This document shows, piece by piece, positions 2,649-60,651 of a DNA stretch of 64,000 nt; position 1 is the stretch's first letter, and each line of letters begins with the position of its first letter. The position numbers were made by a program, and so were the translations under genes. The notes below the pieces were generated by a model. It did not search any database. It saw only the letters and a program-made list of their open reading frames with translations, and was not told the DNA's origin. This stretch comes from a virus (Duplodnaviria; Heunggongvirae; Uroviricota; Caudoviricetes). The DNA is taken from the IMG/VR virus record IMGVR_UViG_2579779105_000001; one strand, written 5' to 3'.

Positions 2649-3281
2649 TTGGCTACAGCGCAGAGCATTATCGAAACATTAAAGCGAGAGTGCTCACAGC
2701 TTGGTCACGATCTGAACCGTGCTTGTGGCATGGGACAAAGACCAGAGACATTTCCACTTATGTATGATGGGCGGGATGCCATTGCCTACATCCATGAGTA
2801 TCCGCACGGCCTGGTTGCGGAAACTGGGCAGCGTGGCGAAGCACTGCTGACGGCTAATTACCATCAACAAATCAGAACCAATCGCCTGTTAACGATGGAT
2901 GTGATCCCATCGGTGTGGGGAACGCCGCTTTACTATCGCCTGCCGGGCTTCGAAAAGGACTGGAATACCGACATAGACGAATGTCTCGCAGATAAAATTA
3001 TGGCGTACCTGGAGACGGATTTTCCGCGCTTATATCGCCGGATTATGGACTCTAAGGATGCGCCAATCGATGAATTAAAAATGCGTCCGGAGACGCTGGA
3101 GGCAATCAAGCAGACGGAGTTTGATACTGTATTCAGTGTGGCCTGCATTCCAAGCTGTTTCCATGAAAGCATTCCGTTCATGCAAGGAGATCGTCGTCAG
3201 GAAATCATTGACGCTTGCCGGGTATGGGCGAACGAATGGGATAAGAAGAATGGGGGTGTAGAAGATCTTTACGGGAAATAA
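2649..3281 (+). CDS. hypothetical protein
   Basis: 210-aa ORF with a TTG start in the track; the true start is uncertain (possible ATG near 2727). No recognisable motif. Confidence 0.35.
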   Translation: MATAQSIIETLKRECSQLGHDLNRACGMGQRPETFPLMYDGRDAIAYIHEYPHGLVAETGQRGEALLTANYHQQIRTNRLLTMDVIPSVWGTPLYYRLPGFEKDWNTDIDECLADKIMAYLETDFPRLYRRIMDSKDAPIDELKMRPETLEAIKQTEFDTVFSVACIPSCFHESIPFMQGDRRQEIIDACRVWANEWDKKNGGVEDLYGK

Positions 3282-3295
3282 TGTGTTAGAAATCT
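3281..3295 (-). promoter_or_regulatory. putative C1-type operator-like site (TTTCTAACA core)
   Basis: The reverse complement reads ATTTCTAACACAT, matching the motif that recurs at about ten intergenic positions in this window. Confidence 0.4.
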
Positions 3296-3350
3296 AAAAT
3301 TACGATTCGAATGTATTGATTGTGAAGGTAACTTAACATAGAATTTTCCT

Positions 3351-3424: not shown

Positions 3425-3652
3425 TTTAACAAATTAAAGCGTTAGAAAAGTATAGTAACGCAAGAGCACGCTTTGGCACCGTGCAGGCCAAAGTTCAGCA
3501 GGTTTAGTGCGGAAAGTGGTTTCAGAGAGAGCACTTTGCGGAGTAAACGACAGTACATGTTGAGCCACGGAAGGTCTTTTTAAGGTGTTCATTGATGATG
3601 GTCCGGCAGAGAGTAACGGTACATGCTGCATCTAATCATCAATGCACATCTT

Positions 3653-3717
3653 CAACATTAAGGAGGCATAGGGATTTTTGTGGCGGTTACCTTTTGCCCT
3701 GAGTCTCCTTAATGTTG
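3653..3717. repeat. 13-bp perfect inverted repeat (CAACATTAAGGAG / CTCCTTAATGTTG) enclosing an AAGGAGG Shine-Dalgarno-like element
   Basis: Read directly from the sequence. Confidence 0.6.
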
Positions 3718-3934
3718 CGGTAATGCACCTATGCGGATGTGGCCTTGCATTGTGTCTTGAAAGAATGGGGTAAGGCCGGGGACATCCCCAGGGGGAGGCA
3801 CCCCCGCTGCAACGAACAGCCACAGACGGCAGTCGAGTGATGGGAACGTGCAAAGACTTTAAACCTCGTTATGGCTGGCGTGGCAAACGCGACAACCGAG
3901 ACAGAGCGGTGACGGGCGGAGAGAGTGCCGCATC

Positions 3935-4011
3935 AAGAAAGAAGCCGACTTGTGATCCCTTTCAGCGGGCATTTGAAAGTGAATCCAGTTCAGGCAGTCG
4001 GCTTCTTTCTT
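3935..4011. repeat. 16-bp perfect inverted repeat (AAGAAAGAAGCCGACT / AGTCGGCTTCTTTCTT) with a 45-nt loop
   Basis: Read directly from the sequence. Confidence 0.6.
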
Positions 4012-4031
4012 GTGTGAGATGTAGCGTATTT

Positions 4032-4055
4032 GCCCATCTTCGGGTGGGCTTTTTT
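4032..4055 (+). terminator. rho-independent terminator-like hairpin
   Basis: GCCCATC-TTCG-GGTGGGC stem-loop followed by TTTTTT. Confidence 0.45.
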
Positions 4056-4222
4056 AGGGTTTTCGTCATGGTTAGCGACTTTGCGGCGGTTTAGAACCCG
4101 ACCATTAAAGTAAATGCAAACGATGATCTGATGATGGTAGCGGCCTAAGAAGCCTGACGCCACGGGGTATGAGTCGTCCCCCGTCAAAAAATCGACCGCA
4201 GAGTGTCCCCGTCTGTGTATTA

Positions 4223-4335
4223 GGGAACGGGGAGGCATAACAGGCAAGGGCGCTGGTGTGATTAACCAGATGAATGAGAAGGGTCAGGTCTTTCTGGTCA
4301 GCGCCCTTACCTGTTACGTCCCTCCCGCGTAACAG
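4223..4335. repeat. extended imperfect inverted repeat (17-bp core AACAGGCAAGGGCGCTG / CAGCGCCCTTACCTGTT, one mismatch)
   Basis: Read directly from the sequence; flanking GGGAACGGGGAGG / CCTCCCGCG segments extend the pairing. Confidence 0.5.
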
Positions 4336-4514
4336 CCATTGCTTGATGGTATATGGGAAAGTTTGTTGGTTACGGGTATATCCCGTCATGCTGAAGGCGC
4401 TAATCACGCTGGAAGCCAGGGTTATGCATCCCCTGTTACTGAATTGCAGCCAGGGCGCGGTGCGCCGAAAAGCATACGGAGGTGGAAGCCCTCGCCGGAG
4501 ACGTACCCGGCAAG

Positions 4515-4590
4515 TGATGGTGTAGCTCAGCGGTTAGAGCGGTTGACTGTTAATCAACGGGTCGATGGTTCAAATCCATCCACCATCGCC
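4515..4590 (+). tRNA. tRNA-Asn (anticodon GTT)
   Basis: Manual cloverleaf: acceptor GATGGTG/CACCATC, D-arm TAGCTCAGCGGTTAGAGC, anticodon loop CTGTTAA, T-loop GGTTCAAATCC, 3' CCA encoded. Confidence 0.85.
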
Positions 4591-4592
4591 AA

Positions 4593-4668
4593 TGCCGGTT
4601 TAGCTCAGTTGGTAGAGCGCCTGCCTTGTAAGCAGGATGTCAGCGGTTCGAGTCCGTTAACCGGCACC
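4593..4668 (+). tRNA. tRNA-Thr (anticodon TGT)
   Basis: Acceptor GCCGGTT/AACCGGC, anticodon stem-loop CCTGC-CTTGTAA-GCAGG, T-loop GGTTCGAGTCC, CCA encoded. Confidence 0.85.
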
Positions 4669-4677
4669 AACACAACA

Positions 4678-4750
4678 GGTAAGGGTATTTTGCGACGTCG
4701 GAGATCGCCGTGCTTGGCAGAGGGTTCGAATCCCTACGAAGTACCCTTAC
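4678..4750 (+). pseudogene. degenerate tRNA-like element
   Basis: 10-bp perfect outer stem (GGTAAGGGTA / TACCCTTACC) encloses a T-arm-like AGGGTTCGAATCCCT hairpin, but the T-arm is not adjacent to the acceptor stem and no D or anticodon arm fits. Confidence 0.3.
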
Positions 4751-4882
4751 CGTTGTGATGAAGTGCAGCTCTTTGAAGCAACCAGAAGATAAGCATCTGG
4801 CTTCACAACATAAACCGCAGGAACGACCAATAAACGGTAGTCCGTATGGAGAACACCCCGTTGAGGAAGAGGCCTGGCCGGA

Positions 4883-4993
4883 ACCGTAACCGGCACCACA
4901 ACGTTGAGAACATTGGCGTAACGGGATCATATCCCAATCTATGAATAAATGTCGCGAGGCAGCGTGACAACCAGTGTTCTCAACGTTGTGGTG
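4883..4993. repeat. 19-bp perfect inverted repeat (CACCACAACGTTGAGAACA and its reverse complement) around a 73-nt loop
   Basis: Read directly from the sequence; the loop contains a GGGATCATATCCC palindrome with a GATC site. Confidence 0.6.
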
Positions 4994-5133
4994 GATTCGC
5001 AGACTGATGCGATAGCTTTCTTGGATGTTAGGGAAATGCGGCCGCAAATCTTCCCTTTCGCGAGCGGTGATCGTCCGTAGTCCTAATTGGCTGCACCGTA
5101 TGCCGGAGATTCAGTACCGGCCACCACAACGGC

Positions 5134-5220
5134 CGGAGAGTAGGGAGCATGGTGCTCAAGCGGTCTTGAAAACCGTCCCATTGCGCAAGCGATGATGGTT
5201 CGATTCCATTACTCTCCGCC
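5134..5220 (+). tRNA. tRNA-Ser-like (anticodon TGA), class II with long variable arm; slightly non-canonical D-arm
   Basis: Acceptor GGAGAGT/ACTCTCC, anticodon arm GCGGT-CTTGAAA-ACCGT (near-identical to the E. coli tRNA-Ser(UGA) arm), T-arm GATGG-TTCGATT-CCATT, discriminator G, CCA encoded. Confidence 0.5.
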
Positions 5221-5484
5221 AGCGCAACGTTAAGAGTATTTGGCTAATTAAGCGAATGCCGGAAGCAGAACCGGATCACCAAATGCGTACAGGCGTCATC
5301 GCCGCCCAGCCAGCCAAGTGCTCTTACCATTGCGGTGAATGCGGCTAAGCGCACGCGGAACAGTTAAAACAATCCTTATTAGTGGTTAAATCAAACATCC
5401 CGGCGTTAATTGTTAACTGGTTAACGTCACCTGGAGGCACCAGGCACCGCAGCTTTTTTATTCGTTAAATAATGGAGTGAGAGG

Positions 5485-5703
5485 ATGCAGAACAATCCGA
5501 ACAAATGTCGAACGCTATGGGTGCGGCTATATATTTATGTCGTCCTCTGTTTGATTGTGTCACTGGTTCTGTATGTTTGGCTTTTGCCAAATATGATCTC
5601 ATCTGACAGCACAATACTTGTATTGTTGGGAGTCCTTCTCGCGCTCATTTACCCGGCTTTTGCAGTAGTCTTTTTTCGCAAAAAAATCCAGGAAATTGAT
5701 TAA
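5485..5703 (+). CDS. small hydrophobic membrane protein (two predicted TM helices)
   Basis: 72-aa ORF with hydrophobic segments; its stop overlaps the start of the next gene (ATTAATG). Confidence 0.45.
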   Translation: MQNNPNKCRTLWVRLYIYVVLCLIVSLVLYVWLLPNMISSDSTILVLLGVLLALIYPAFAVVFFRKKIQEID

Positions 5704-6530
5704 TGAAAAAAACGTTGATTAGTGCAGCGATTATTTTTGGTTCTTTATGTCTGACCGGATGCGACCGGGTAGAACCAGGCAATGTAGGGATCAAAGTAAA
5801 TAAGCTGGGGGATGATAAAGGTGTCGGCGAAGTAGTTGGCGTTGGTCGCTACTGGACAGGCTGGAACACAGAAGTTTATATCTTCCCGACCTTTAAGCAA
5901 ATGAAGACCTATGATGATCCGTTCAGCTTCCAAATGAGCGACGGGACAACAATTGGTTACCACATTGGTGTAGCTTACAAGGTTGATCCGGCAAAAGTCA
6001 CAACTGTATTTCAGACCTACCGCAAAGGCGTGGATGACATTACCGACACCGACCTGCGCCAGAAGATTGCCGACGCACTTAACCGACTGGCCAGCAAAAT
6101 GACCACCGACAAATTTATCGACGGTGGCAAGTCTGAACTGCTGGATGCAGCTCTTAAAGACATCCAGGAAGAAATGACGCCCATCGGTATTCAGGTAATG
6201 AGCCTCTCATATGTGGGCAAGCCGGAGTACCCGCCAACCGTTATCGACAGCATTAATGCCAAAGTCACGGCGAACCAGAAAACTCTGCAACGCGAGCAGG
6301 AAGTCAAGCAACGCGAAGCAGAAGCCAACATGCTGCGCGCAGAAGCTGCCGGACAGGCCGATGCCATTCGCACAAAAGCCCAGGCTGAAGCTGATGCCAT
6401 TCGTTTACGCGGTGAGGCTCTGCGCCAGAACCCCGGCGTTATGGAGTTGGAAGCGATCAACAAATGGAACGGAACGCTACCGCAGTATATGACCAGTAAT
6501 ACCGCTGTTCCGTTTGTTCCGGTGAAATAA
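5703..6530 (+). CDS. SPFH/band-7 (HflK/C-stomatin-like) domain lipoprotein
   Basis: Lipoprotein signal with LTGC lipobox; SPFH-like core and a C-terminal Ala/Glu/Arg-rich coiled coil (AEANMLRAEAAGQADAIRTKAQAEADAIRLRGEA). Confidence 0.6.
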   Translation: MKKTLISAAIIFGSLCLTGCDRVEPGNVGIKVNKLGDDKGVGEVVGVGRYWTGWNTEVYIFPTFKQMKTYDDPFSFQMSDGTTIGYHIGVAYKVDPAKVTTVFQTYRKGVDDITDTDLRQKIADALNRLASKMTTDKFIDGGKSELLDAALKDIQEEMTPIGIQVMSLSYVGKPEYPPTVIDSINAKVTANQKTLQREQEVKQREAEANMLRAEAAGQADAIRTKAQAEADAIRLRGEALRQNPGVMELEAINKWNGTLPQYMTSNTAVPFVPVK

Positions 6531-6684: not shown

Positions 6685-6760
6685 GGCCCTTTAGCTCAGT
6701 GGTTAGAGCTGGCGACTCATAATCGCACGGTCACCGGTTCAAGTCCGGTAGGGGCCACCA
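6685..6760 (+). tRNA. tRNA with CAT anticodon (Met, or Ile2 if lysidine-modified)
   Basis: Acceptor GGCCCTT/AGGGGCC with one G-U pair, D-arm TAGCTCAGTGGTTAGAGC, anticodon loop CTCATAA, T-loop GGTTCAAGTCC, CCA encoded. Confidence 0.8.
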
Positions 6761-58394: not shown

Positions 58395-58688
58395 TGAGGG
58401 CATTTTTTACATCATCAATCCATCAGCAATGAAGGCATTCTTTACATATTTCAATAATATCAATCAGTTAACACAGTGAATGATAATAAAAAAGCGCAAT
58501 AAGAATGCACGATACGCACGATATTGGTTGAGGGCGATTTTTACATAATCCTTACATATCAATATGTTATATAAAAACACAACTTGCTAATAACGAGATA
58601 CATGCAATTAAGATGTAAAAATTGCCCTCAATTGCCGATCGTTAAGGGCAAATTCTACACCTTGAGAGGGGTGTAAAAATTGCCCTTA
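58395..58688. repeat. incA-like iteron cluster downstream of repA (at least 5 iterons, both orientations)
   Basis: TGAGGGC(A/G)(T/A)TTTTTACA-type units at about 58395, 58529, 58612 (inverted), 58643 and 58669 (inverted). Confidence 0.6.
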
Positions 58689-59441
58689 AGACTGCTGATA
58701 GGTAAATTTTATCCTGGTAACTTTGCCGCCTTCCGTCACCTCTGAGAAGACTATTTTCATTTTTGTATTTTTTTCAATCTCTGCTACAGCCTTCGTTAAA
58801 AAACTTCTCTTAAATTCGGCATACCGCTGATAACTTTTTGGTAACCCATAACGCTCCCGCATCCATTCGACGCCAAGTATGGCAAAGCCGCTTCCATCAT
58901 CCTTCCTGTACTGGCATAAGGACTCATAAAGCCGCATAGAATAAGGATTTGTAAGGCGAGATACTTCGGTAAAATTCAGCCTTGTGAATCTCTTATCAAG
59001 CAGAGTAAAAAACGGCATGAGATATGGATTAAGATGAATAATGTAAGTCCCGCGCCGTGGTGAATAGGCATCCTTAATCATCCAGGGATAAGACTCATAA
59101 CTGTCTTCTGATTCGGTCGATTCATCAGGGTTATATATCGTAACTTTCTTCTCGCTAAGACCTGAAATGGCCTTACGAATATCCTTGCTGGCTTCAGCAG
59201 AGGGCAAATTATACATCTCTGCATATTCGTTGACCGTCAACTCACAGGCACCTGAACCAAGAACGCCATCCTTAGAAGCATAGCGAAGTCTTCCCACCAC
59301 AATAAACAACAGTCGCTTTTGGTCGCGAGTCAGGTGATAAGCAGCCTCCGTGATCTCATTGGCTTGTGCCAGACTACGACTAATAGGTGTCGCTGACTCA
59401 ATCAGGCTGACGGCTTTTGCTGTTAATTCCGCTCTGTTCAT
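58686..59441 (-). CDS. repA: iteron-binding replication initiator RepA
   Basis: Start set at MNRAEL; flanked by origin iterons upstream and control iterons downstream, as in P1/RepFIB-type replicons. Confidence 0.7.
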   Translation of the reverse strand: MNRAELTAKAVSLIESATPISRSLAQANEITEAAYHLTRDQKRLLFIVVGRLRYASKDGVLGSGACELTVNEYAEMYNLPSAEASKDIRKAISGLSEKKVTIYNPDESTESEDSYESYPWMIKDAYSPRRGTYIIHLNPYLMPFFTLLDKRFTRLNFTEVSRLTNPYSMRLYESLCQYRKDDGSGFAILGVEWMRERYGLPKSYQRYAEFKRSFLTKAVAEIEKNTKMKIVFSEVTEGGKVTRIKFTYQQS

Positions 59442-59829: not shown

Positions 59830-60651
59830 TTGAACATTCCAAAATTCCCATTGCCTTCCCGTCCTGAGACAGAAATTCAGTTCCACGCCCCTACCGTGAA
59901 GGATGCGCTGAAATATTCTGACCTGAACCCGGCAGAAGATGAGGCAACGACTACAGAGTACCTTAACTCTATGCAGGATGGTGAAATTAACGACAGTGCT
60001 AACTGGACAGTTCAGGATCGCAGAACTGCTCTTTGGTGGATATTTGTTAATTCGCGCCCCGATGCTGTAATGACCTACTCCTATGAGTGCAGTCACTGCG
60101 GTAATACGCATCATGCCGATATTAACCTGAGCGACCTGGCCCAAACAGTAGAAATACTCACTGTACCTCCTTACGTGAAAACCAACGTACCAGTAAATGG
60201 AGTACCAACTGACTGGATACTTAAACCATTAACCGGGAAAGGCGCGGAACTCCTTGAACGAATGCGAGCGTCACTTCCTGATATGAAAAGTCCCGAATAC
60301 AGTGCTGGCGTAGCACGGATGCGAATTGCTGAACTCGCTTTATGCACGGCGCTTAAAGACGATCCGGAGGACTTCACGCAGGCCGCTAACCGACGCTTTG
60401 ACATCATTGAAAGCATGGCGCTTGAAACCGAATTTACCCCGCTTGTGGCTCGCATACAGCTTATGCAAAAAGACCTACGCCACGGCCTGAAAATGTCTAT
60501 TGAGAGAGGCTCAAGCCGACTGATCCTGCCTCCGCAACATTGCAAAAACGCTAAGGAGGGTGCAGATGTGACAACCACACTGTACGTCCCCTTTCTCAAT
60601 AGAGAGTTTATCCCATCAATTAGATCTGAATGGATGGCTAACCATTATTAA
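59830..60651 (+). CDS. hypothetical protein
   Basis: 273-aa ORF downstream of the origin. Confidence 0.45.
   Translation: MNIPKFPLPSRPETEIQFHAPTVKDALKYSDLNPAEDEATTTEYLNSMQDGEINDSANWTVQDRRTALWWIFVNSRPDAVMTYSYECSHCGNTHHADINLSDLAQTVEILTVPPYVKTNVPVNGVPTDWILKPLTGKGAELLERMRASLPDMKSPEYSAGVARMRIAELALCTALKDDPEDFTQAANRRFDIIESMALETEFTPLVARIQLMQKDLRHGLKMSIERGSSRLILPPQHCKNAKEGADVTTTLYVPFLNREFIPSIRSEWMANHY

What the first reader, a model, noticed from the sequence alone, without database searches (positions are those of the whole stretch)
4883..4993. 19-bp perfect inverted repeat flanking a 73-bp core with a GATC-containing palindrome
CACCACAACGTTGAGAACA and its exact reverse complement bracket a short AT-rich core containing GGGATCATATCCC. 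The perfection and length exceed what a terminator needs. It could be a recombinase or invertase target, a miniature mobile remnant, or a long RNA stem protecting or processing the tRNA transcript. The element also encodes a Dam-like methyltransferase that would modify the GATC.
Basis: seen in the sequence. Interest (0 to 1): 0.4.

Follow-up and report, generated by a model that had tools for sequence, protein, structure and literature searches.

The report
Phage tRNA-operon RNA processing hairpin
The inverted repeat is real and is one copy of an undescribed but widespread family of long RNA hairpins that sit next to tRNA and small-RNA genes in P1-like and other enterobacterial phages, and whose conserved stem looks like a cutting site for the host enzyme RNase III.

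Summary
The window is a P1-like phage-plasmid (closest to D6 and P7). The GATC is private to this copy.

The hairpin lies on the tRNA-sense strand of a roughly 2-kb untranslated stretch, between tRNA-Thr and tRNA-Ser. It is conserved in P1, P7, D6 and SSU5-like phage-plasmids. It occurs about once per carrying genome and is never inverted.

It belongs to a family of hairpins with a sequence-conserved ~20-bp stem (CACAACG-N-U-R-AG-R-GCA-Y-U-K...) and unrelated loops. Members sit beside phage tRNAs and in lambdoid early leaders. The stems covary strongly, and G.U pairs favour the sense strand, so the hairpin acts as RNA.

In one register only, the conserved pairs match the published E. coli RNase III determinants. 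Predicted cuts are 4904^4905 and 4984^4985. Cleavage was not tested.

The recombinase, MITE, Dam and coding (P1 "plp") readings are not supported. The loop carries a conserved module that, in lambdoid relatives, is identical over 14 nt to the initiator-tRNA anticodon arm. Its role is unknown.

The parts
4894..4916 (+). 5' arm of the hairpin (type A). Family stem position 1 is C4897.
   Evidence: Pairs 4894-4916 with 4993-4971: 22 Watson-Crick pairs plus U4913.G4974.
4971..4993 (+). 3' arm of the hairpin
4905..4908 (+). Predicted RNase III proximal box: U4905-A4982 (pb4), G4906-C4981 (pb3, non-canonical), A4907-U4980 (pb2), G4908-C4979 (pb1). The predicted 5'-arm cut is 4904^4905.
   Evidence: Consensus from PMC1540722. 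Register scan. Inference; cleavage not tested.
4913..4914 (+). Predicted distal box: U4913.G4974 (db2) and U4914-A4973 (db1), the 9th and 10th bp from the cut
   Evidence: The U.G is present in 11 of 20 family members and the U-A in 19 of 20.
4984..4985 (+). Predicted 3'-arm RNase III cut C4984^G4985. This would release an 80-nt hairpin (4905-4984) with a 2-nt 3' overhang.
   Evidence: Geometry from PMC6212723 and PMC1540722. Inference.
4917..4970 (+). Loop region with two small helices (4923-4935, and about 4950-4969)
4918..4941 (+). Conserved apical module GUA-AC-GGG[NUCAUAU]CCC-AAUC-UA. The closing helix covaries. In lambdoid relatives it reads CGGGCUCAUAACCC, identical to the initiator tRNA anticodon arm.
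4997..5012 (+). Small conserved hairpin just 3' of the long stem (UCGCA-GACUGA-UGCGA). Its stem covaries in relatives (GCACA/UGUGC, GCGCA/UGCGC).
4877..4897 (+). tRNA-Thr 3'-end-like minihelix GCCGG-AACCGUAA-CCGGC-ACCA that leads into the 5' arm
   Evidence: (direct-repeat family D1).
4671..4760 (+). Paralogous family hairpin U1, directly after tRNA-Thr. It matches the RNase III consensus 6 of 6 (predicted cuts 4679^4680 and 4751^4752). Its loop has D-arm-like and T-arm-like (GGGUUCGAAUCCC) hairpins.
   Evidence: (compensatory change in P7).
5222..5337 (+). Paralogous family hairpin U3, directly after tRNA-Ser. It matches the consensus 6 of 6 (predicted cuts 5230^5231 and 5328^5329).
   Evidence: rV5-like phages keep the loop with a different stem.
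4229..4325 (+). Further family hairpin (class CAACAG...CUGUUG) upstream of tRNA-Asn
3653..3717 (+). Further long hairpin with a family-like arm (CAACAUUAAGGAGGCAU...)
4516..4669 (+). tRNA-Asn(GUU) and tRNA-Thr(UGU)
5135..5221 (+). tRNA-Ser(UGA)
5331..5451 (+). STnc100/PasD-like small RNA (below the Rfam threshold), immediately 3' of U3

Best explanation
The repeat is the stem of a roughly 100-nt RNA hairpin transcribed on the + strand. It is part of a long untranslated tRNA and small-RNA precursor in the P1-type early ('ban') operon. It is one copy of a family of hairpins found in enterobacterial phages. The family shares a ~20-bp stem conserved in sequence, while the loops differ between types.

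The stem most likely serves as a double-strand cleavage site for host RNase III. The enzyme would cut at U4904^U4905 and C4984^G4985. This would separate the upstream tRNA-like end from the downstream RNA and release an 80-nt capped hairpin.

Where such hairpins abut real tRNAs, the predicted cuts leave 6-10-nt 3' trailers or 3-6-nt 5' leaders. Exonucleases and RNase P can finish ends of that length.

Shown here: the structure, its conservation, the strand, membership of the family, and the match to the consensus. Inferred: transcription, and cleavage by RNase III.
For: 1. Real and conserved. The stem is 23 bp and folds at -55 kcal/mol, z = -8.1. It is kept in D6, P7 and P1, in 939 plasmid records and in 633 of 5426 complete E. 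coli genomes.

2. Changes within type A preserve pairing. C-G becomes U.G at three stem positions. One pair runs C-G (window, D6), then C.A (P1), then U-A (SSU5-like).

3. Family-wide covariation. In 20 hairpin types, 95.8% of cells are paired and 11 of 20 pairs change on both sides. No shuffle of 500 reaches the observed value.

4. RNA on the tRNA-sense strand. The sense strand folds better in 17 of 20 members. The stems hold 31 G.U pairs against 8 A.C. There is a conserved U.G at stem position 17.

5. Context. Hairpins start 0-4 nt after the CCA of tRNA-Thr or tRNA-Ser, or end at the 5' end of tRNA-Arg. Of 58 distinct family hairpins, 39 lie within 300 nt of a tRNA and 19 within 12 nt.

6. 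Match to RNase III rules. Published consensus (PMC1540722): pb4 A-U/U-A, pb3 A-U, pb2 A-U/U-A with G-C forbidden, pb1 G-C, db U.G then U-A at bp 9-10, and an 11-bp helix. The family fits in one register only, scoring 94 of 120 against 59 for the next best. Column-shuffle P = 0.01.

7. Invariant pairs. The only two invariant pairs, bp 4 and bp 11, both A-U, are the D'/D positions. In-vivo mapping found those to be almost always A-U (PMC6212723).

8. Neighbouring paralogues. U1 and U3 each score 6 of 6 (P about 0.002-0.003 each). This hairpin scores 5 of 6.

9. The same operon contains a 'dicF-like region'. From my own knowledge, DicF in the dicB operon is matured by RNase III and RNase E.
Against: - No experiment or RNA-seq end mapping was available, so cleavage and even transcription are inferred.
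- For this hairpin alone the 5 of 6 consensus match is weak (P about 0.10).
- Its pb3 is G-C, which is non-canonical. In D6, P7 and P1 the distal-box U.G is C-G.
- The basal side offers only 9 bp and has a G-C next to the cut, which is a catalytic antideterminant.
- The family-level register test gives P about 0.01, not overwhelming. Family members are related by descent, so shuffle controls overstate independence.
- RNase III cleavage does not explain why a loop module is conserved.
- A strong intrinsic terminator at 4032-4049 lies upstream. The promoter that feeds the tRNA segment was not identified.
Confidence: 0.6

Rival explanations
1. The hairpin is chiefly a functional stable RNA. Its active part would be the conserved apical module, a mimic of the initiator or Met-type tRNA anticodon arm. 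It could act as a decoy or binding site for a factor that reads the CAU anticodon arm. The long stem would only package or liberate it. This reading is compatible with RNase III release.
For: - The 24-nt loop module recurs in hairpins with different stems: P1 H3, L112 and lambdoid leaders.
- Its closing helix covaries: 5 of 7 pairs change on both sides, and 0 of 500 shuffles reach the covariation score.
- U-C-A-U-A and the three G-C pairs never vary, although the search pattern itself fixed them.
- The lambdoid form CGGGCUCAUAACCC equals E. coli metZ positions 28-41.
Against: - Most family members have entirely different loops while keeping the stem. The stem, not this loop, is therefore the family's common denominator.
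- The mimic has only 3 bp of stem.
- The P1-type loop (NUCAUAU) has drifted from the tRNA sequence.
- No partner protein or target was identified, and no complementary target was found in the window.
Confidence: 0.2
2. The hairpin is a passive structural element in a long untranslated transcript. It would block 3' exonucleases, insulate the folding of neighbouring tRNAs, or deny Rho a loading site, with no specific endonucleolytic cut.
For: - Five of the nine longest inverted repeats of the 64-kb window cluster at 3579-4993.
- The 471-nt spacer is far more structured than shuffles, z = -6.6.
- A boxA-like, N-leader-like element lies nearby.
Against: A purely structural role does not explain conservation of the stem sequence across phage families. 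In particular it does not explain the invariant A-U pairs and the conserved U.G/U-A step.
Confidence: 0.12
3. It is a decaying remnant of tRNA genes and their flanks, carried along by recombination, with no function of its own.
For: - tRNA-end-like repeats occur at 4657, 4886 and 5114.
- T-arm-like and D-arm-like pieces are found in family loops.
- The segment distribution among phages is mosaic.
- The region is non-essential for P1 plaque formation in a CRISPRi screen (PMC10695390).
Against: Compensatory changes keep 23 bp paired across P1-like, SSU5-like and other phages. Neutral remnants would lose the pairing.
Confidence: 0.05
4. It is a DNA-level element: a recombinase or invertase site, a MITE-like mobile remnant, a Dam-controlled site, or part of the protein gene plp on the - strand.
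For: - The arms are long, perfect terminal inverted repeats.
- P1 encodes Cin, Cre and Dmt.
- The P1 annotation places plp over this region.
Against: - No inverted variant exists among 49 distinct sequences.
- There is one copy per genome.
- Arm spacing varies by type, about 66-110 bp centre to centre by my count from the hairpins, so the arms are not helically phased.
- The arm palindrome CAACGTTG is lost in other types while complementarity is kept.
- The G.U asymmetry points to RNA.
- The GATC is not conserved.
- plp is broken by a 19-nt deletion in P7 and a 1-nt deletion in L007. NCBI's PGAP annotation pipeline almost never calls a gene at this position in RefSeq records: all but one of the 40 listed rows show 'none'.
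Confidence: 0.03

Closest known systems
RNase III processing signals of phage T7 early RNA (R1.1 and its minimal form uR1.1)
   Same: Both are hairpins of about two helical turns inside a polycistronic phage transcript. From the predicted cut the stem reads U-G-A-G / A-A-C-A / U(.G)-U(-A). uR1.1 reads A-A-A-G / G-U-C-A / U(.G)-U(-A). So pb1 G-C, pb2 A-U and the distal box U.G/U-A fall at the same distances. The uR1.1 sequence is recalled from memory and checked against the numbering given in the paper's text.
   Different: T7 sites lie between mRNAs and usually carry an internal loop that gives a single cut. This stem is fully paired, has G-C at pb3, flanks tRNAs and sRNAs, and has a large structured loop. 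Cleavage is untested here, and homology with the T7 sites was not tested.
RNase III stems of rRNA operons, the lambda N-leader and sib hairpins, and DicF maturation in the dicB operon
   Same: All are host RNase III sites used to excise stable RNAs or control expression from long structured transcripts. Related family members sit in lambdoid pL leaders. A dicF-like region lies in the same P1 operon.
   Different: No alignable similarity to the lambda N leader was established; I only noticed an AAGCAUUGG...CCAAUGUG stretch on reading it. The roles of those sites are known from experiments; this one is predicted only.
Stable RNAs 'species 1 and 2' (rnaC, rnaD) of the phage T4 tRNA cluster
   Same: These are non-tRNA structured RNAs embedded in a phage tRNA cluster. 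Their function is still unknown. Species 1 is cleaved by RNase III in vitro (own knowledge).
   Different: The phage group is different, no similarity was tested, and the T4 RNAs are not part of a repeated hairpin family.
STnc100 / PasD prophage small RNAs (Rfam RF02076)
   Same: A sub-threshold STnc100 match lies 3' of the sister hairpin U3. The STnc100 consensus starts with the same ..UGGUGAAU + small hairpin that follows the family stems.
   Different: The hairpin itself has no Rfam match at E <= 10. STnc100/PasD are Hfq-binding, terminator-ended sRNAs.
MITEs, ERIC/REP elements and integron attC sites
   Same: Conserved inverted ends around a variable core, with a total length of about 100 bp.
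   Different: It is single-copy. No target-site duplication was seen at the hairpin ends (not searched for systematically). No integrase-type R/L boxes are present (read by eye). Pairing is maintained by compensatory change with sense-strand G.U pairs.

Membership tests
E. coli RNase III double-strand cleavage substrate | Helix of about two turns, with at least 11 bp beyond the scissile bond | tested here: met
   The stem is 23 bp, with 12 bp distal to the predicted cut. The rule comes from PMC1540722.
E. coli RNase III double-strand cleavage substrate | Proximal box: pb2 A-U/U-A (G-C forbidden), pb1 G-C, pb4 A-U/U-A | tested here: met
   A4907-U4980, G4908-C4979 and U4905-A4982. In the family these pairs are kept in 20/20, 19/20 and 19/20 members.
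E. coli RNase III double-strand cleavage substrate | pb3 = A-U | tested here: not met
   The pair is G4906-C4981. The family shows G-C in 13 of 20 and A-U in 6 of 20. Substitutions here weaken binding but are not the strong antideterminant.
E. coli RNase III double-strand cleavage substrate | Distal box: U.G then U-A at bp 9-10 from the cut | tested here: met
   U4913.G4974 and U4914-A4973. In the family these are present in 11/20 and 19/20. D6, P7 and P1 have C-G at db2.
E. coli RNase III double-strand cleavage substrate | rnc-dependent cleavage giving 5'-P ends and 2-nt 3' overhangs | not testable with these tools
   No RNA-end data or enzyme assay was available.
Intrinsic (Rho-independent) terminator | G+C-rich stem of 5-12 bp followed directly by a U run | tested here: not met
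   The stem is followed by GAUUCGCAG, and the terminator scan does not call it.
tRNA or tRNA-like gene | Cloverleaf recognised by ARAGORN or the Rfam tRNA model | tested here: not met
   No call at 4670-5134. Only an anticodon-arm-like or T-arm-like hairpin is present.
Any curated Rfam family | Covariance-model match | tested here: not met
   No match to 4894-4993 at E <= 10 in the window. The equivalent hairpins in P1 and an SSU5-like plasmid gave no bacterial or phage family at E <= 1. P1's copy drew only a far sub-threshold microRNA-precursor match on the minus strand (mir-142, 27.6 bits against a gathering score of 57), which reflects hairpin shape alone.
Site-specific inversion switch (Cin/Hin type) | Both orientations of the segment between the repeats occur in a population or among relatives | tested here: not met
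   All 49 distinct variants have the same loop orientation relative to their flanks.
MITE / dispersed repeat | Multiple dispersed copies per genome | tested here: not met
   The median is 1 and the maximum 2 places per genome, and 646 of 655 places are on plasmids. There is one copy in the window.
Dam (GATC) regulated site | GATC conserved at the site | tested here: not met
   GGGATC occurs only in this window and in one other of the distinct variants collected from viral contigs. The others read GGGGTC, GGGTTC or GGGCTC.
Protein-coding gene plp (P1 annotation, - strand) | Reading frame conserved among relatives | tested here: not met
   P7 has a 19-nt deletion and L007 a 1-nt deletion. In SSU5-like plasmids the segment is fused directly to tRNA-Thr. 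Almost all RefSeq rows show no annotated gene. No protein-homology search was run.

The most novel reading that the evidence does not exclude
The 80-nt RNA released from this hairpin is itself a functional phage RNA. Its tip, a three-G-C stem with a seven-base loop N-U-C-A-U-A-W, would mimic the anticodon arm of initiator (or Met/Ile2-type, CAU) tRNA; in lambdoid relatives it is identical over 14 nt to E. coli tRNA-fMet. It would titrate or recruit a factor that reads that arm. Candidates include a VapC-type tRNA-fMet anticodon nuclease, MetRS or TilS, or the ribosomal P site. That would make the family a set of RNase III-released tRNA-fragment decoys encoded beside phage tRNAs.
Probability: 0.1. 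Interest if true: 0.8.

Novelty: new member of a known kind. Interest (0 to 1): 0.42.

Why it matters
If the prediction holds, P1-like and SSU5-like phage-plasmids, rV5-like phages and many lambdoid prophages share a modular and so far unannotated processing signal. It would use host RNase III to cut tRNAs and small RNAs out of long untranslated transcripts.

This would explain how phage tRNA operons mature without relying on RNase E sites. It would give exact, testable cleavage coordinates. It would also provide a sequence and structure signature for finding more phage non-coding RNA cassettes.

The result further implies that the long-standing P1 genes plp and upl are probably not genes but overlie structured RNA. 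The conserved loop module that resembles an initiator-tRNA anticodon arm is a separate lead that could connect to tRNA-targeting defence or toxin systems.

Tried and rejected
- Rfam scans of the window and of the P1, SSU5-like and lambdoid loci gave no family for the hairpin. They returned only tRNAs, a sub-threshold STnc100 next door, and meaningless microRNA-precursor hits that reflect hairpin shape.
- Literature searches by gene names, topic and literal sequence strings found no description of the element. The P1 genome paper was not held.
- The Dam/GATC idea is rejected because the GATC is not conserved.
- The invertase idea is rejected because no inverted variants exist.
- The MITE idea is rejected on copy number.
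- The terminator idea is rejected because there is no U run.
- The minus-strand promoter hit at 4955-4926 is at background level: 3 found against 4.6 expected.
- A small ORF in the loop (MNKCREAA) loses its ATG in relatives.
- I first placed the RNase III dyad at the palindromic centre ACGU, which fits WSSW. I rejected this because it puts G-C at the forbidden pb2/D positions on both sides. Shifting by one bp puts the two invariant A-U pairs there.
- I searched the window for a target complementary to the loop motif and found nothing above chance.
- E. coli K-12 prophage CPS-53, a relative of the SfV-type phages that carry the lambdoid form, lacks the element. The published K-12 RNase III cleavage map therefore could not be used as a direct test.
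- The proteins downstream of the lambdoid copies are not recognisable N antiterminators, so a boxB reading of the loop module is unsupported.
- The Y-RNA (YrlA) idea for the T-arm-bearing sister hairpin has no Rfam support.

Full report
**What the window is.** The 1.1 kb around the finding is 98% identical to phage D6 and 95% to P7, and matches P1 in pieces. The window is therefore a P1-like phage-plasmid. In P1 this region belongs to the C1-controlled 'ban' operon, which reads on the + strand: dmt, a 'dicF-like region', tRNA-Asn, tRNA-Thr, then tciA-C, tRNA-Ile2 and ban.

In the window, tRNA-Asn is at 4516-4591, tRNA-Thr at 4594-4669, tRNA-Ser(UGA) at 5135-5221 and a CAU tRNA at 6685-6760, all on the + strand. 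The finding lies in the 465-nt spacer between tRNA-Thr and tRNA-Ser. P1's annotation puts two hypothetical genes, plp and upl, on the opposite strand across this spacer.

**Checking the observation.** The 19-nt sequence and its exact reverse complement are at 4894-4912 and 4975-4993. With one T.G the repeat extends to 23 nt, 4894-4916 / 4971-4993. About 3.5e-5 such perfect repeats are expected by chance in 64 kb.

The stated start (4883) is 11 nt too early. The core is 62 nt, not 73, and its G+C (48%) equals the window average. GGGATCATATCCC is at 4923-4935. As RNA the + strand folds into a single long hairpin with two small helices in the loop, at -55 kcal/mol and z = -8.1. The - strand is weaker, at -49.1 kcal/mol.

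**Conservation, copy number and the DNA-level ideas.**
- The hairpin is present at the same place in D6, P7 and P1, in 939 PLSDB plasmids, and in 633 of 5426 complete E. coli genomes.
- In those genomes the median is one copy, 646 of 655 places are on plasmids, and in nearly all listed RefSeq rows no gene is annotated under it.
- The window has no second copy of the arm or of the loop motif.
- I collected loci through the loop motif alone, which does not bias the stems. This gave 49 distinct variants from more than 100 viral contigs. All have the loop in the same orientation relative to the flanks. This argues against an inversion switch.
- The GATC is found only in this window and one other distinct variant. 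Others read GGGGTC, GGGTTC or GGGCTC, so the Dam link fails.
- plp is interrupted by a 19-nt deletion in P7 and a 1-nt deletion in contig L007. In SSU5-like plasmids the hairpin is fused directly to the 3' end of tRNA-Thr. The coding reading is therefore not supported.

**Changes within this hairpin type keep the stem.** C4897 is U in D6, P7 and P1, where it pairs with G. U4913 is C in those phages, again opposite G. Other isolates add further U.G or G.U pairs on the + strand. One pair runs through C-G (window, D6), C.A (P1) and U-A (SSU5-like), which is a completed compensatory change.

**A family, not a singleton.** The same tRNA operons contain other long hairpins whose arms are recognisably the same sequence. 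In this window they are 4671-4760 (U1, directly after tRNA-Thr), 5222-5337 (U3, directly after tRNA-Ser), 4229-4325 and 3653-3717. Five of the nine longest inverted repeats in the whole 64 kb lie within 3579-4993.

Elsewhere:
- SSU5-like phage-plasmids have four or five such hairpins around tRNA-Asn, Tyr, Thr and Ser. At the position after tRNA-Thr, some carry this very hairpin and others a hairpin with the same base but a different distal stem and loop.
- rV5-like virulent phages keep the U3 loop after tRNA-Ser with a different, still complementary, stem.
It found further types, including one that ends exactly at the 5' end of tRNA-Arg in phiV10-like phages, and types in lambdoid early (pL) leaders such as mEp460, SfV, ST64B, cdtI and Stx2c phages.
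- A scan of one genome per species found members in Citrobacter, Pantoea, Erwinia, Rahnella and Ewingella.
- Of 58 distinct hairpins of the main class in the loci held, 19 lie within 12 nt of a tRNA gene and 39 within 300 nt.
- The left-arm consensus is (C)ACAACG-N-U-R-A-G-R-G-C-A-Y-U-K-G. Loops are unrelated between types.

**RNA, and on the sense strand.** I aligned the stems of 20 types (20 bp each; A3).
- 95.8% of cells are paired.
- 11 of 20 pairs show changes on both sides.
- The covariation score is 0.374 against 0.177 in shuffles (0 of 500 reach it). Slid registers give 31-54% pairing.
- The members are related, so the shuffle count is not a probability. The slid controls and the number of doubly changed pairs are nevertheless clear.
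- In sense orientation the stems contain 31 G.U pairs against 8 A.C.
- 17 of 20 hairpins fold more stably on the tRNA-sense strand.
- Stem position 17 is U.G in 11 of 20 types.
- Arm spacing varies by type, by my count about 66-110 bp between arm centres. In several types the arm is no longer palindromic but remains complementary. The conserved feature is therefore pairing, not two DNA sites.

- pb4 A-U/U-A
- pb3 A-U
- pb2 A-U/U-A, with G-C or C-G blocking binding
- pb1 G-C
- a 2-bp middle box
- a distal box of U.G then U-A
- all within an 11-bp helix.

One such set is enough to specify a site (PMC1540722). In-vivo mapping adds three points: the two pairs between the staggered cuts are paired, usually with a G-C; the D/D' positions (= pb2) are almost always A-U; and the cuts leave 2-nt 3' overhangs (PMC6212723).

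Scanning every register of the family alignment, one stands out: 94 of 120 rule-cells met, against 59 for the next best. In that register:
- pb4 is bp 9 (U-A in 19/20)
- pb2 is bp 11 (A-U in 20/20)
- pb1 is bp 12 (G-C in 19/20)
- db2 is bp 17 (U.G in 11/20)
- db1 is bp 18 (U-A in 19/20)
- the symmetric D' position is bp 4 (A-U in 20/20).

Bp 4 and bp 11 are the only invariant pairs of the stem. Shuffling the columns reaches this score in 1% of trials.

For the window's hairpin the register gives cuts at U4904^U4905 and C4984^G4985, and five of six rules are met. The exception is pb3, which is G-C. For this hairpin alone that is not significant, P about 0.10. The sister hairpins U1 and U3 meet six of six, P about 0.002-0.003 each.

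Where family hairpins follow a tRNA, the predicted cut leaves a 6-10-nt 3' trailer. Where one precedes tRNA-Arg, it leaves a 3-6-nt leader. These distances are my own counts. Exonucleases and RNase P normally finish such ends; that is established knowledge, not tested here.

The RNA downstream of each cut begins ..GUUGUGGUGAAU followed by a small covarying hairpin. After U3, that is where a sub-threshold STnc100/PasD-like small RNA starts.

My reading is that these stems are RNase III sites that cut a long untranslated precursor into tRNAs, small RNAs and capped hairpins. Transcription and cleavage are inferences. No end-mapping data were available.

**The loop.** The 5' part of the loop, GUA-AC-GGG[NUCAUAU]CCC-AAUC-UA (4918-4941), recurs in other places:
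- in a second hairpin 279 nt downstream in P1 proper, where deletions by recombination between the two copies also occur;
- in a hairpin with an unrelated stem downstream of a lambdoid late terminator;
- as GACGGGCUCAUAACCCAAUCCA in at least 90 lambdoid early leaders.

Its closing helix covaries. The lambdoid form is identical over 14 nt to the anticodon stem-loop of E. coli initiator tRNA (metZ). It shares the three G-C pairs, U33, the CAU anticodon and A37. Other family loops carry T-arm-like hairpins instead.

This may be a tRNA fossil or a functional mimic. I could not find a partner or target.

**Comparison with what is known.** Functionally the closest things are the RNase III signals of T7 early RNA, the rRNA operon stems, the lambda N-leader and sib hairpins, and DicF maturation. 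The T4 tRNA-cluster stable RNAs are a positional analogue; that comparison rests on my own knowledge.

No Rfam family covers the hairpin. Literal sequence searches of the paper library found nothing. A CRISPRi screen scored trnT, plp and upl as non-essential for P1 (PMC10695390), as expected for an accessory RNA region.

**Verdict.** It is an RNA hairpin of a conserved phage family, and most likely an RNase III processing site (confidence about 0.6). It is a new member of a known kind, of moderate interest. There is a more speculative and more interesting lead in the anticodon-arm-like loop module.

Noticed in passing
window 4657-4674, 4886-4903, 5114-5131 (and 4877-4897): There are three direct copies of a tRNA-Thr 3'-end-like sequence (..ACCGGCACCA-CAACG), spaced 229 and 228 nt apart. 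4877-4897 looks like an internally deleted tRNA-Thr. In SSU5-like plasmids the hairpin follows the intact tRNA-Thr directly, so 4670-4893 looks like an insertion or unequal-crossover product at a tRNA 3' end.
   Followed up: partly
window 4750-4808: Another hairpin (GUUGUGAUGAAG...CUUCACAAC) has a loop and covarying stem that match the leader immediately upstream of the N antiterminator gene of the P22-like phage SPN9CC. The same stretch also matches Sashavirus and Klebsiella phage-plasmids. A boxA-like GCUCUUUGA lies at about 4769-4777. It could be a nut-like or N-leader-like element inside a P1 operon.
   Followed up: partly
window 5331-5451 (U run to about 5460): There is a sub-threshold match to Rfam STnc100 (40.4 bits against a gathering score of 47). 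STnc100 is a prophage small RNA recently linked to PasD. It starts 2 nt after the predicted RNase III cut of hairpin U3.
   Followed up: partly
window 3934-4012 and 4032-4049: A perfect 17-bp hairpin is followed by a strong intrinsic terminator (GCCCATCTTCGGGTGGGC + T6). By position this appears to correspond to the 'dicF-like region' annotated in P1. It implies that the tRNA segment needs read-through or its own promoter, which I did not find.
   Followed up: no
L003 (P1) 2741-3310; window 4640-5047 minus strand: The P1 genes plp and upl overlie the structured-RNA hairpins and are broken by indels in relatives. They are probably annotation artefacts.
   Followed up: partly
window 5135-5221; L003 3281-3346: tRNA-Ser(UGA) is present in the window, D6, P7 and SSU5-like plasmids. 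In P1 proper it is replaced by a second hairpin carrying the same 24-nt loop motif. rV5-like virulent phages share this tRNA-Ser plus its downstream hairpin loop at 83% identity.
   Followed up: partly
L251 (mEp460) about 1745-1865; also SfV, SfII, ST64B, cdtI and Stx2c phages: Lambdoid early leaders carry a boxA-like CGCUCUUUUUAC followed by a family hairpin whose tip is CGGGCUCAUAACCC (the initiator tRNA anticodon arm). It lies just upstream of a conserved gene of unknown function (phrog_204, YfdP-like). E. coli K-12 CPS-53 has lost it.
   Followed up: partly
window 2649-3281: An ORF equal to the C-terminal half of a PmgS-like head-morphogenesis protein is stranded between dmt and the non-coding RNA region. 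This is a junction between a P1-like and a D6-like gene order.
   Followed up: no
window 5485-6530: A 72-aa membrane protein and a 275-aa SPFH/Band-7 protein occupy the place where P1 and D6 have tciA/tciB/tciC.
   Followed up: no
window 58528-58689 and 60490-60609: Other long inverted repeats (30 nt at 80%, 20 nt at 90%, 20 nt at 85%) lie far from the tRNA region. They were not examined.
   Followed up: no
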